Under the pieces are notes generated by a model. The model ran no database searches. It had not been told where the DNA came from and was given only the letters and a program-made list of their open reading frames with translations. DNA of 64,000 bases from Escherichia phage JY01. Shown here piece by piece: positions 45,966-46,987 of this stretch. The stretch lies in sequence record OR995200.1; one strand, given 5' to 3'. Every line of letters begins with the position of its first letter. The stretch's first letter is position 1. Both the position numbers and the translations under genes were made by a program.

Positions 45966-46041
45966 TGGTCGAGGCAGTAGGGATCGAACCTACGACCTAG
46001 GACTTAGAAGGTCCTTGCTCTTCCTTCTGAGCTATGCCCCG
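45966..46041 (-). tRNA. tRNA-Arg (anticodon UCU)
   Basis: Manual cloverleaf: acceptor 7 bp, D-stem GCTC/GAGC, anticodon loop CUUCUAA, T-loop, CCA encoded. Confidence 0.8.
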
Positions 46042-46045
46042 TAAT

Positions 46046-46121
46046 TGGGGTGACCGATGGGAGTCGAACCCATGACTACGAGAATCACAATCTCGAGTTC
46101 TACCAACTGAACTACGGCCAC
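46046..46121 (-). tRNA. tRNA-His (anticodon GUG)
   Basis: Manual cloverleaf; anticodon loop UUGUGAU, discriminator C73, CCA encoded. Confidence 0.7.
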
Positions 46122-46235
46122 ATTAATACCTACTCCAACAATCAAGATGTCTTCACACGAAATTAAGAGAAGAGTGATCAGTTCAACCCCTATAATCGCG
46201 TCAAGTAGATATTAATGTGACAGTTGTCACAAATT

Positions 46236-46310
46236 TGGCGGACGTGATAGGATTCGAACCTATAACCAATCGCTTAACAGGCGATCGCTCTGCCATTGAG
46301 CTACACATCC
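46236..46310 (-). tRNA. tRNA-Asn (anticodon GUU)
   Basis: Manual cloverleaf; anticodon loop CUGUUAA, discriminator G73, CCA encoded. Confidence 0.7.
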
Positions 46311-46314
46311 AAAT

Positions 46315-46401
46315 TGGTGGGGAGTGATGGAGTCGAACCACCCGAGTCGCAATGACAATGAATTTACAGTCCACACCGCTACCTCTACGGGATAACTCCC
46401 C
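46315..46401 (-). tRNA. tRNA-Tyr (anticodon GUA), long variable arm
   Basis: 87 nt; anticodon loop CUGUAAA; acceptor GGGGAGU/ACUCCCC. Confidence 0.65.
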
Positions 46402-46414
46402 TTAATTCATAATT

Positions 46415-46489
46415 TGGTGGCCCTGGGTGGAATTGAACCACCATCTGGCGATTATGAGTCGCTTGCTTGAACCTTCCAGCTACAGGGCC
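46415..46489 (-). tRNA. tRNA with CAU anticodon (Ile-lysidine or Met)
   Basis: Manual cloverleaf; anticodon loop CUCAUAA; CCA encoded. Confidence 0.7.
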
Positions 46490-46490
46490 T

Positions 46491-46566
46491 TGGTGCTGAT
46501 TGACGGAATCGAACCGCCGACCTTCTCATTACAAGTGAGTTGCTCTACCTACTGAGCTAAATCAGC
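46491..46566 (-). tRNA. tRNA-Thr (anticodon UGU)
   Basis: Manual cloverleaf; anticodon loop CUUGUAA. Confidence 0.75.
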
Positions 46567-46571
46567 AAAAC

Positions 46572-46661
46572 TGGCGGAGGTGATAGGATTCGAACCTATG
46601 AATCGCCGGAGCGACTGCCGGTTTTCAAGACCGGTGCATTCAACCACTCTGCCACACCTCC
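46572..46661 (-). tRNA. tRNA-Ser (anticodon UGA), long variable arm
   Basis: 90 nt; anticodon stem CCGGU/ACCGG, loop CUUGAAA. Confidence 0.75.
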
Positions 46662-46663
46662 AG

Positions 46664-46737
46664 TCTCCATACAAGGATTTGAACCTTGGACCTCCTGATC
46701 CCAAATCAGGCGCTCTACCAAACTGAGCTACACGGAG
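46664..46737 (-). tRNA. tRNA-Pro (anticodon UGG), CCA not encoded
   Basis: Anticodon stem CCUGA/UCAGG, loop UUUGGGA; T-loop UUCAAAU. Confidence 0.75.
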
Positions 46738-46747
46738 TAAATTAAAT

Positions 46748-46821
46748 TGGAGCGGATAATGAGAATCGAACTCACATCATCAGATTGGAAGTCTGAGGTA
46801 ATACCATTATACGATATCCGC
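46748..46821 (-). tRNA. tRNA-Gly (anticodon UCC)
   Basis: Anticodon stem UCAGA/UCUGA, loop CUUCCAA; acceptor complement exact. Confidence 0.75.
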
Positions 46822-46826
46822 AAATT

Positions 46827-46913
46827 TGGTGCGAGAAGTGGGACTCGAACCCACAAGGAAATCATTCCGCAGCATTTTAAGTGCTGTGCCTTTACCAATT
46901 TGACCATTCTCGC
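46827..46913 (-). tRNA. tRNA-Leu (anticodon UAA), long variable arm
   Basis: 87 nt; anticodon stem CAGCA/UGCUG, loop CUUAAAA. Confidence 0.8.
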
Positions 46914-46914
46914 G

Positions 46915-46987
46915 CTGGGAATAAAGGACTCGAACCTTTGCATCCTGGAATCAAAATCCAGTGCCTTACCAACTTGGCTAATTCCCA
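46915..46987 (-). tRNA. tRNA-Gln (anticodon UUG), CCA not encoded
   Basis: Anticodon stem CUGGA/UCCAG, loop UUUUGAU; acceptor complement exact. Confidence 0.75.

What the first reader, a model, noticed from the sequence alone, without database searches (positions are those of the whole stretch)
45966..46987. Eleven-gene tRNA cluster including His, Asn and Tyr
Manual cloverleaf folding gives 11 adjacent minus-strand tRNAs: Gln, Leu, Gly, Pro, Ser, Thr, CAU (Ile/Met), Tyr, Asn, His, Arg. The Tyr, Asn and His anticodon loops (CUGUAAA, CUGUUAA, UUGUGAU) match the E. coli isoacceptor loops as I recall them. T4 is recalled to encode only eight, so three extra decoders appear to sit where T4 has a spacer. 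Pro and Gln lack an encoded CCA.
Basis: partly seen in the sequence, partly recalled or inferred. Interest (0 to 1): 0.6.

Follow-up and report, generated by a model that had tools for sequence, protein, structure and literature searches.

The report
Known T-even phage tRNA gene cluster
The eleven tRNA genes are real, but this is the already described and annotated tRNA region of a T2-type relative of phage T4; the one unreported detail is that the 114-base 'gap' before the histidine tRNA is a conserved folded RNA, and that this histidine tRNA lacks the extra 5' G its charging enzyme normally needs.

Summary
Observation confirmed. ARAGORN calls exactly the 11 minus-strand tRNAs at 45966-46987, and Rfam passes 10 of 11 at 59-74 bits. 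The window is a Tequatrovirus, 99.9% identical to phage vB_EcoM-Sa45lw, where all 11 are annotated. About 190-200 phage records share the arrangement.

T4 does have only eight. Its 'spacer' is the homing-endonuclease gene segB, and its Ile and Arg tRNAs are different alleles (~68% identity). The region is therefore a swapped cassette, as shown for T2L in 2008 (PMC2330249).

The CAU tRNA is Ile2 (AUA). The Tyr gene is 86/87 identical to the T6 tRNA-Tyr shown to counter the Septu defence.

Codon demand fits the eight classical tRNAs, Tyr (1.8x) and Asn (1.5x), but not His (0.7x).

New detail: tRNA-His always travels with a conserved, unannotated ~95-nt structured leader (46122-46216). Its 14-bp stem is 100% paired with compensatory changes, it is found in 355 phage records, and it has no Rfam match. 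This tRNA-His has C73 but U at -1, so no G-1 is encoded.

Verdict: ordinary and already known as a tRNA cluster, with a modestly interesting side finding.

The parts
46914..46987 (-). tRNA-Gln (UUG). No encoded CCA; abuts tRNA-Leu with a 0-nt spacer. Anticodon stem-loop differs from T4's: loop UUUUGAU here, CUUUGAC in T4.
46827..46913 (-). tRNA-Leu (UAA), identical to T4.
46748..46821 (-). tRNA-Gly (UCC), identical to T4.
46663..46737 (-). tRNA-Pro (UGG), identical to T4. No encoded CCA; 1 nt before tRNA-Ser. In AR1-type relatives a seg-like homing-endonuclease gene replaces it.
46572..46661 (-). tRNA-Ser (UGA). 92/99 identical to T4, but encodes CCA where T4 has TAA.
46491..46566 (-). tRNA-Thr (UGU), 84/88 identical to T4.
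46415..46489 (-). tRNA with anticodon CAU, most likely tRNA-Ile2 (lysidine, reads AUA). Its anticodon stem-loop GCGACUCAUAAUCGC and its acceptor ends match E. coli ileX. Only 57/84 identical to T4 tRNA-Ile.
46315..46401 (-). tRNA-Tyr (GUA), class II with a long variable arm. 86/87 identical to T6 tRNA-Tyr. Absent from T4.
   Evidence: PMC13096335
46236..46310 (-). tRNA-Asn (GUU). Absent from T4. In T2L the orthologous gene holds the preferred SegB cleavage site.
   Evidence: PMC2330249
46122..46216 (-). Conserved structured leader RNA directly 5' of tRNA-His. P1 is a 14-bp terminal stem (46203-46216 pairs with 46122-46135). P2 is an arm with a variable interior (46155-46201). P3 is a small hairpin (46137-46151) with an invariant 7-nt loop UCWUGAU (46141-46147). 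Unannotated in GenBank and has no Rfam family.
46216..46231 (-). Lineage-specific 5' hairpin GUGACA/UGUCAC. Its 3' strand GUCAC copies the tRNA-His acceptor 3' strand and can instead extend P1 into His nucleotides 1-5.
46046..46121 (-). tRNA-His (GUG). C73 and CCA are encoded, but position -1 is U, so no G-1 is encoded. 67/83 identical to E. coli hisR. Present or absent together with the leader as one ~195-bp module.
45966..46041 (-). tRNA-Arg (UCU). A different allele from T4/T6 tRNA-Arg (57/83 identity).
45597..45947 (-). 116-aa ORF (phrog_3355, function unknown) between tRNA-Arg and rnaD. Absent at this position in T4 and part of the T2L-type cassette.
45483..45597 (-). rnaD (species 2 stable RNA), 115/116 identical to T4. 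Not annotated in the nearest GenBank record.
45338..45476 (-). rnaC (species 1 stable RNA), 137/139 identical to T4. Not annotated in the nearest GenBank record.
45264..45287 (-). Intrinsic-terminator-like hairpin (10 bp, 7 G-C, followed by a U run) that closes the tRNA/stable-RNA transcription unit.

Best explanation
This is the tRNA/stable-RNA transcription unit of a Tequatrovirus (species Tequatrovirus sf23), in its segB-free, T2L-type form.

Mechanism (inferred from T4 biology, not shown here): the eleven tRNAs, a small ORF and the stable RNAs rnaD and rnaC are transcribed on the minus strand as a polycistronic precursor ending at the terminator at 45264-45287. Host RNase P, 3' exonucleases and the CCA-adding enzyme then cut it up. 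The CCA-adding enzyme is needed for Gln and Pro, which lack an encoded CCA.

Role of the tRNAs: they top up or replace host tRNAs.
- The eight classical tRNAs read A-ending codons that this 35%-GC phage uses 1.4-7.4 times more often than E. coli.
- Tyr and Asn serve amino acids the phage uses 1.8 and 1.5 times more often.
- Tyr additionally replenishes a pool that host defences (Septu, retron-Eco7) destroy.

Relationship to T4: T4 differs because SegB homing replaced the CAU-Tyr-Asn-(His)-Arg-ORF cassette with Ile-segB-Arg.

tRNA-His: it is a separate ~195-bp add-on module, made of a conserved structured leader RNA plus a tRNA-His without an encoded G-1. The leader is most likely released as a stem-closed stable RNA of about 95 nt when RNase P cuts at His +1 (inferred). 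Its helix abutting position +1 may also shape 5' maturation of tRNA-His.
For: - Eleven tRNAs are called.
- 99.9% identity to an annotated Tequatrovirus genome, with 199 records covering at least 80% of the region.
- Synteny with T4 on both sides, with rnaC and rnaD at 98% identity and a terminator after them.
- Cassette boundaries are at ~46470 and 45598, with divergent CAU and Arg alleles. This matches the ~1250-bp T2L segment replaced by SegB homing (PMC2330249).
- Codon ratios, phage versus E. coli: AGA 7.4, AUA 4.5, UCA 3.4, GGA 3.1, ACA 3.0, UUA 2.7, Tyr 1.82, Asn 1.51.
- The Tyr gene is 86/87 identical to T6 tRNA-Tyr. Amplifying that T6 gene overcomes Septu (PMC13096335). T5 tRNA-Tyr rescues infection from retron-Eco7 (PMC11555353).
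- His module: the 10-tRNA relative BMB16 lacks both the leader and His.
- Leader: found in 355 records across at least 7 genera, always next to His in the Tevenvirinae. P1 is 100% paired with 4 covarying pairs, and 0 of 500 shuffles reach the observed percentage paired, cells changed on both sides or covariation score. It has 30 G.U and 0 A.C pairs, and z = -4.4 against shuffles.
Against: - Transcription, processing and charging were not observed here; they are carried over from T4 biology.
- The window holds mostly early and middle genes, so late-gene codon demand was not measured.
- His codons are rarer in the phage than in the host (0.70x), so supplementation does not explain tRNA-His.
- Lys demand is 1.8x, yet no tRNA-Lys is carried.
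- The Tyr, Asn and His anticodon loops are identical to the host's. These tRNAs are therefore not obviously nuclease-resistant variants, and T6 tRNA-Tyr is itself cleaved by Septu (PMC13096335).
- No data show that the leader accumulates as an RNA.
Confidence: 0.85

Rival explanations
1. The three additional tRNAs (Tyr, Asn, His) are primarily counter-defence genes. They are three of the four GUN-anticodon, queuosine-family tRNAs. Colicin E5-type anticodon nucleases cleave that family, and for Tyr so do Septu and retron-Eco7. On this view the phage carries spare copies to survive tRNA depletion rather than to match codon usage.
For: - Experimental proof exists for the near-identical T6 tRNA-Tyr against Septu (PMC13096335) and for T5 tRNA-Tyr against retron-Eco7 (PMC11555353).
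- His is not explained by codon demand (0.70x).
- Colicin E5 is listed among the host tRNases that phage tRNAs may counter (PMC10264068). That its targets are Tyr, His, Asn and Asp is from my own knowledge.
Against: - The anticodon loops are identical to the host's, so these tRNAs have no obvious resistance.
- Wild-type single-copy T6 tRNA-Tyr does not overcome Septu; amplification is needed (PMC13096335).
- No defence system specific for tRNA-Asn or tRNA-His was found in the papers read.
- Tyr and Asn do fit codon demand.
- Asp, the fourth member of the family, is absent.
Confidence: 0.3
2. The leader is a cis-acting maturation device specific to tRNA-His. Its helix runs up to position -1 and can extend into nucleotides 1-5. 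It would control where or when the 5' end is cut, for example leaving U-1 with a 5' phosphate as a substitute for G-1, or delaying maturation. It would not be an independent small RNA.
For: - In every Tevenvirinae lineage examined the helix directly abuts tRNA-His.
- Kanagawavirus keeps only a 12-bp P1-like hairpin, ending 2 nt before His.
- All these His genes have U-1 and C73 and no G-1.
- P1 can extend into His G1-C5 in all 6 lineages folded.
- The interior of P2 is freely replaceable, with at least 4 unrelated versions.
- The 5' phosphate positioned by the -1 nucleotide is critical for HisRS (PMC9976931).
Against: - Vequintavirinae phage A7_1 has a homolog upstream of tRNA-Gln, separated from it by a 10-nt linker.
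- Salmonella phage STP4-a keeps an intact element although His is deleted.
- Aeromonas phage Ah1 tRNA-His also lacks G-1 but has no clear abutting helix.
- The P3 loop is invariant, which points to a function beyond a simple helix.
Confidence: 0.3
3. The leader is a DNA-level relic, either a miniature inverted-repeat element or a scar of homing-endonuclease traffic in this very mobile region, with no RNA function.
For: - The region is a hotspot of seg-type endonuclease activity and mosaicism (PMC2330249).
- The element has terminal inverted repeats and a swappable interior.
- It behaves as an insertion/deletion together with His.
Against: - All 30 non-Watson-Crick P1 pairs are G.U on the tRNA-sense strand, and none is A.C.
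- Compensatory changes keep P1 and P3 paired across genera.
- The P3 loop is invariant.
- The element is as conserved as the tRNA next to it.
Confidence: 0.07

Closest known systems
tRNA gene region of phages T2L, RB1 and RB3 (Brok-Volchanskaya et al. 2008, PMC2330249)
   Same: - Same genomic position.
- No segB.
- Gln, Leu, Gly, Pro, Ser, (Thr), CAU ('Met'), Tyr, Asn and Arg, plus small ORFs.
- It is the cassette that T4 SegB cuts (inside tRNA-Asn) and replaces.
   Different: The window has an extra ~195-bp module (structured leader plus tRNA-His) between Asn and Arg, giving 11 tRNAs instead of 10. The 10-tRNA state is seen in BMB16.
Phage T4 tRNA region (8 tRNAs, segB, rnaD, rnaC)
   Same: - Same flanking genes.
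- Leu, Gly and Pro are identical; Gln, Ser and Thr are close.
- rnaC and rnaD are 98% identical.
- Gln-Leu and Pro-Ser are abutting pairs without CCA on the first member.
   Different: - T4 has segB instead of Tyr, Asn, leader and His.
- T4 has different Ile(CAU) and Arg alleles.
- T4 has no ORF between Arg and rnaD.
- T4 Ser and Ile lack an encoded CCA, whereas here both encode it.
Phage T6 tRNA-rich region and its anti-Septu tRNA-Tyr (PMC13096335)
   Same: The tRNA-Tyr is 86/87 identical, and the locus is the same.
   Different: T6 is a mosaic with T4-type Ile, segB and Arg. It has no Pro, Ser, Asn or His.
T4 small stable RNAs rnaC and rnaD (species 1 and 2)
   Same: Like the leader, they are non-tRNA structured RNAs embedded in the tRNA transcription unit and bounded by tRNA-processing sites. 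Their function is unknown (PMC3014915).
   Different: There is no sequence or covariance-model similarity: model R1 does not hit them. rnaC has a tRNA-like T arm, which the leader lacks. The leader sits 5' of a tRNA rather than at the 3' end of the unit.
G-1-less tRNA-His of some alpha-proteobacteria and their phages (PMC5389517, PMC9976931)
   Same: No G-1 is encoded.
   Different: Those tRNAs have A73 or U73 and a co-evolved HisRS. This tRNA-His keeps C73, and its host E. coli uses G-1:C73 as the main identity element.

Membership tests
T-even (Tequatrovirus) tRNA gene region, T2L type | Located between the ip/57B/trna.x ORFs and the e.x genes, on the same strand. | tested here: met
   blastn against T4 shows collinear flanks at 89-97% identity. 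The annotations of Sa45lw, AR1 and T6 agree.
T-even (Tequatrovirus) tRNA gene region, T2L type | Gene order Gln-Leu-Gly-Pro-Ser-Thr-CAU, followed by Tyr-Asn-Arg and a small ORF, with no segB. | tested here: met
   compared with the description in PMC2330249 and with BMB16. No segB-sized ORF is present. The leader plus His is an addition to the T2L layout.
T-even (Tequatrovirus) tRNA gene region, T2L type | Stable RNAs rnaD and rnaC, and a terminator, downstream. | tested here: met
   115/116 and 137/139 identity to T4. Terminator-like hairpin at 45264-45287.
Canonical tRNA (Rfam RF00005 / ARAGORN cloverleaf) | Each of the 11 genes scores as a tRNA. | tested here: met
   ARAGORN of 11. RF00005 gives 59-74 bits for 10 of 11. 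Tyr is reported only as a sub-threshold tRNA-Sec clan hit (29.9 bits), but it is 86/87 identical to the expressed T6 tRNA-Tyr.
Bacterial (E. coli-type) tRNA-His | Genome-encoded G-1 pairing with C73. | tested here: not met
   Position -1 is U here and in all related phage His genes examined. C73 is present. Alignment to hisR shows the missing G. The identity rule is taken from PMC9976931.
Bacterial (E. coli-type) tRNA-His | Anticodon GUG and overall similarity to hisR. | tested here: met
   67/83 identity, with an identical anticodon loop UUGUGAU.
tRNA-Ile2 (lysidine, AUA) as opposed to tRNA-Met | ileX-like anticodon stem-loop, and C4-G69/C5-G68 in the acceptor stem (TilS determinants, from my own knowledge). 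| tested here: met
   The stem-loop GCGACUCAUAAUCGC is identical to ileX, and the acceptor ends are GGCCC/GGGCC. It occupies the position of T4 tRNA-Ile. AUA is 4.5x enriched in the phage.
tRNA-Ile2 (lysidine, AUA) as opposed to tRNA-Met | C34 is actually modified to lysidine and the tRNA is charged with Ile. | not testable with these tools
   Needs mass spectrometry or aminoacylation assays.
Any described RNA family (Rfam 15), for the Asn-His leader | A covariance-model match. | tested here: not met
   Nothing at E<=1 in 4 kb. On the 221-nt stretch only chance-level miRNA hairpin hits at E 0.38-5.9, far below their gathering scores.
T4 rnaC/rnaD family, for the leader | Sequence or structure similarity to species 1 or 2 RNA. 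| tested here: not met
   Model R1 finds one copy in the window (46115-46219) and nothing in the T4 region or at the window's rnaC/rnaD. The folds differ.

The most novel reading that the evidence does not exclude
The 'spacer' before tRNA-His is a previously undescribed family of structured phage RNA. It has a 14-bp terminal stem, a swappable arm and an invariant UCWUGAU hairpin loop, and it is conserved across at least seven Tevenvirinae genera.

It is either a third T-even small stable RNA with its own function, or a device that controls 5'-end formation, and therefore histidine identity, of a phage tRNA-His. That tRNA-His, unusually for an E. coli phage, keeps C73 but encodes no G-1.
Probability: 0.4. 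Interest if true: 0.55.

Novelty: already known. Interest (0 to 1): 0.25.

Why it matters
As a tRNA cluster it adds nothing new. The arrangement is annotated in about 200 genomes, its relation to T4 through SegB homing was worked out in 2008, and its tRNA-Tyr has a demonstrated anti-defence role.

Two side observations could matter to RNA and phage biologists.

1. A conserved, covarying, unannotated ~95-nt RNA sits inside the tRNA operon of hundreds of therapeutic-type T4-like phages. A 2010 T4 review noted that no trans-acting small RNA had been functionally characterised from T4 (PMC3014915).

2. The phage tRNA-His lacks the G-1 that E. coli HisRS relies on, and codon demand does not explain why the phage carries it. 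This raises a testable question: how, or whether, this tRNA is matured and charged.

Tried and rejected
- **Known RNA family for the leader:** Rfam at permissive thresholds found nothing.
- **Leader as a paralog of rnaC/rnaD:** rejected, because covariance model R1 does not hit them.
- **Leader as a degenerate tRNA:** no tRNA-model hit at E<=10.
- **Leader as a sigma-70 promoter:** no hit on the tRNA-sense strand. The only consensus match nearby, on the + strand at 46224-46253, spans the Asn/leader junction. The TTGACG motif is not conserved in Klebsiella phages.
- **Leader as a hammerhead-like ribozyme core (CUGAUCA):** rejected, because that segment is replaced by unrelated sequence in several lineages.
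- **Small ORF starting at the AUG/UUG in the P3 loop and running through tRNA-His (46032-46145):** judged spurious. It overlaps a tRNA on the same strand, and a 4-nt deletion in EnC07 breaks it.
- **Homing-endonuclease insertion site in the Asn-His gap:** rejected. In AR1/KIT03-type phages the endonuclease gene replaces tRNA-Pro instead.
- **Strict His-specificity of the element:** weakened by phage A7_1 (element upstream of Gln) and STP4-a (His deleted).
- **Alternative register giving tRNA-His a G-1 (8/4 structure):** rejected by inspection. It would break U8/A9 and the 5-bp T stem.
- **IMG/VR and metagenome scans:** returned few extra copies, 4-12 loci.
- **Literature search for phage tRNA-His lacking G-1 with C73:** nothing relevant found.
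Full report
**1. Observation**

ARAGORN run on the whole 64-kb window finds exactly 11 tRNA genes. All are on the minus strand at 45966-46987. In order of transcription they are Gln(UUG), Leu(UAA), Gly(UCC), Pro(UGG), Ser(UGA), Thr(UGU), CAU, Tyr(GUA), Asn(GUU), His(GUG) and Arg(UCU).

Rfam's tRNA model scores ten of them at 59-74 bits, against a gathering score of 29. The class-II Tyr gene appears only as the clan's best hit, tRNA-Sec at 29.9 bits. It is nevertheless 86/87 identical to the T6 tRNA-Tyr, which has been detected and tested experimentally (PMC13096335).

Nine genes encode CCA. Spacers between the genes are 0-13 nt, except for 114 nt between Asn and His.

**2. 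Identity of the genome and prior knowledge**

The region is 99.9% identical to Escherichia phage vB_EcoM-Sa45lw (Tequatrovirus sf23), where all 11 tRNAs are annotated. In a collection of 50,697 phage records, 199 cover at least 80% of window 45700-47300, and 186 cover at least 80% of the Arg-His-spacer-Asn-Tyr segment. The cluster is therefore already known and routinely annotated.

**3. Comparison with T4**

T4 has Gln, Leu, Gly, Pro, Ser, Thr and Ile, then the 666-bp GIY-YIG homing-endonuclease gene segB, then Arg, rnaD and rnaC. T4 does lack Tyr, Asn and His, but what sits in their place is segB, not a spacer.

blastn shows that homology to T4 stops at about 46470, inside the CAU tRNA, and resumes at 45597, at rnaD. 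Gene by gene:
- Leu, Gly and Pro are identical to T4.
- Thr is 84/88 and Ser is 92/99. Ser encodes CCA here, whereas T4 has TAA.
- Gln is 77/85 and has a different anticodon stem-loop.
- The CAU and Arg tRNAs are only 57/84 and 57/83 identical to T4's Ile and Arg.

A 116-aa ORF (phrog_3355, function unknown) separates Arg from rnaD. rnaD (45483-45597) and rnaC (45338-45476) are 115/116 and 137/139 identical to T4 but are not annotated in Sa45lw. A terminator-like hairpin follows at 45264-45287.

This is the arrangement described for T2L, RB1 and RB3. There, SegB cuts preferentially inside tRNA-Asn, and homing replaces about 1250 bp carrying 'tRNA-Met', Tyr, Asn, Arg and ORFs (PMC2330249). The locus is highly mosaic:
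- AR1-type phages have a seg-like gene in place of Pro, giving 10 tRNAs.
- BMB16 has 10 tRNAs without His.
- T6 combines T4-type Ile, segB and Arg with Tyr.

**4. Individual tRNAs compared with the host**

Alignment with E. coli K-12 hisR, tyrT, asnT and ileX shows the following:
- The Tyr, Asn and His anticodon loops are identical to the host's.
- The CAU tRNA shares its whole anticodon stem-loop (GCGACUCAUAAUCGC) and its acceptor ends with ileX. It is therefore tRNA-Ile2 (AUA), not Met as ARAGORN and the GenBank records label it.
- hisR encodes G-1, but the phage gene has U at that position while keeping C73.

**5. Function**

I compared codon usage in 101 window ORFs with 42 E. coli K-12 CDS.
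- The classical eight tRNAs read A-ending codons enriched in the phage: AGA 7.4x, AUA 4.5x, UCA 3.4x, GGA 3.1x, ACA 3.0x, UUA 2.7x, CAA 1.5x and CCA 1.4x.
- Tyr codons are 1.82x enriched (UAU 2.6x) and Asn codons 1.51x (AAU 3.15x).
- His codons are depleted at 0.70x (CAU 1.15x, CAC 0.27x).
- Lys codons are 1.81x enriched, yet there is no phage tRNA-Lys.

Supplementation therefore fits ten of the eleven tRNAs but not His. Independently, phage tRNA-Tyr is a proven counter-defence. Septu and retron-Eco7 cleave host tRNA-Tyr, and extra phage tRNA-Tyr restores infection (PMC13096335, PMC11555353).

Tyr, Asn and His are three of the four GUN-anticodon tRNAs that colicin E5-type nucleases target. The target list is from my own knowledge; the general hypothesis is in PMC10264068. 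The loops here are host-like, however, so replenishment is the more plausible route than resistance.

**6. The Asn-His 'spacer' is a conserved structured RNA**

- **Folding.** The 114 nt fold at -32.7 kcal/mol, z = -4.36, with 0 of 200 shuffles as stable.
- **Distribution.** The core (46122-46216) is found in 355 phage records: Tequatrovirus, Klebsiella T4-like phages, Karamvirus, Gelderlandvirus, Moonvirus and Winklervirus. In nearly every listed row it has no annotated feature.
- **Position.** In these genera it lies directly 5' of tRNA-His, whatever tRNA is upstream (Asn in Tequatrovirus, Gln elsewhere). BMB16 lacks both the element and His.
- **Sequence variation.** Sixteen distinct sequences show at least four unrelated interiors, but they keep a constant terminal stem P1, a constant base of P2, and a small hairpin P3 with an invariant loop UCWUGAU.
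- **Covariation.** All 224 P1 cells form standard pairs, and 4 of the 14 pairs show double compensatory changes. Two of the 4 P3 pairs covary. The structure is 94.8% paired, against 26-47% for slid registers. No shuffle of 500 reaches the observed percentage paired, number of cells changed on both sides or covariation score; 12 of 500 reach the observed count of covarying pairs.
- **Strand.** All 30 non-Watson-Crick P1 pairs are G.U on the tRNA-sense strand, and none is A.C. This points to RNA-level selection on this strand.
- **Relation to known RNAs.** No Rfam family matches. A covariance model of the element finds one copy in the window and none in T4, and it does not hit rnaC or rnaD.
- **Minimal form.** In Kanagawavirus the leader is reduced to a 12-bp P1-like hairpin that ends 2 nt before His.

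Two observations weaken a strict link to His. Salmonella phage STP4-a keeps the element although His is deleted. Four Vequintavirinae records carry a homolog upstream of tRNA-Gln, with an entirely different but still paired P1.

In all six lineages folded, P1 can extend 4-5 bp into His nucleotides 1-5. The upstream partner is either GUCAC, a copy of the acceptor 3' strand, or the GCCA end of the preceding tRNA. This gives a helix of about 19-20 bp that competes with the acceptor stem.

**7. tRNA-His without G-1**

Every Straboviridae tRNA-His examined has U at -1 and C73. In E. coli the G-1:C73 pair and the 5' phosphate it positions are the main histidine identity elements, and G-1 is normally encoded in the gene (PMC9976931). 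The known tRNA-His species without G-1 have A73 or U73 and a co-evolved synthetase (PMC5389517, PMC9976931). I found no paper describing this phage case. How this tRNA is matured and charged remains open.

**8. Verdict**

The finding is real. As an '11-gene tRNA cluster with three extra decoders' it is an already known, annotated and mechanistically understood T2-type variant of the T-even tRNA region.

What goes beyond current annotation is the leader-plus-His module:
- a conserved, covarying RNA of about 95 nt whose function is unknown;
- a tRNA-His that lacks G-1 and is not accounted for by codon demand.

My preferred reading, which is inferred and not shown, is that tRNA processing releases the leader as a stem-closed stable RNA, like T4 species 1 and 2, and that its helix may also influence 5' maturation of tRNA-His.

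Noticed in passing
window 45338-45597 (minus strand): Homologs of T4 stable RNAs rnaC (137/139) and rnaD (115/116) lie in a ~390-bp stretch that carries no annotation in the 99.9%-identical GenBank record. Unlike in T4, a 116-aa ORF separates them from tRNA-Arg.
   Followed up: yes
window 46046-46122: tRNA-His has U at -1 and C73, so no G-1 is encoded. The same is true of every Straboviridae tRNA-His examined (Tequatro-, Karam-, Gelderland-, Moon-, Winkler-, Kanagawa- and Cinqassovirus). His codons are rarer in the phage than in E. coli (0.70x).
   Followed up: partly
window 46914-46987 versus T4 (L002 4959-5031): tRNA-Gln exists as two alleles with fully compensated, different anticodon stems and different loops. 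The loop is UUUUGAU here and CUUUGAC in T4. The rest of the tRNA is identical.
   Followed up: no
window 46572-46661 and 46415-46489: tRNA-Ser and the CAU tRNA encode their 3' CCA here. T4's Ser has TAA at that position and its Ile has TAT. This phage should therefore depend less than T4 on host 3' trimming and CCA addition.
   Followed up: partly
L013 (Salmonella phage STP4-a, NC_026607.2 61489-62788), locus ~594-697: The leader element is intact, but tRNA-His is deleted down to its first four bases (GTGG), which are followed by unrelated AT-rich sequence and then tRNA-Asn.
   Followed up: partly
L037 (Escherichia phage A7_1, Vequintavirinae), locus 693-776: A homolog of the element sits between tRNA-Gly and tRNA-Gln in an rV5-like phage. 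Its P1 sequence is completely different (UAUCCAUC/GAUGGAUA). Only 4 such records exist, which suggests lateral transfer from a T4-like phage.
   Followed up: partly
window 46137-46151 and ORF 46032-46145 (minus strand): The invariant P3 loop contains AUG (UUG in this phage) preceded by a purine-rich GAAG(G). It opens a 37-codon frame that runs through tRNA-His. This is probably coincidental.
   Followed up: partly
L003 (phage AR1) 2468-3118; L015 (Enterobacter phage CW742) 1-462: Different free-standing homing-endonuclease genes occupy different slots of the tRNA array in different phages. In AR1 one replaces tRNA-Pro. In CW742 one lies just downstream of tRNA-His, whose CCA is lost there.
   Followed up: no
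window 46415-46489: ARAGORN and the GenBank records examined (Sa45lw, AR1, BMB16, T6) label the CAU tRNA 'tRNA-Met'. Comparison with ileX indicates tRNA-Ile2, a systematic mis-annotation.
   Followed up: yes
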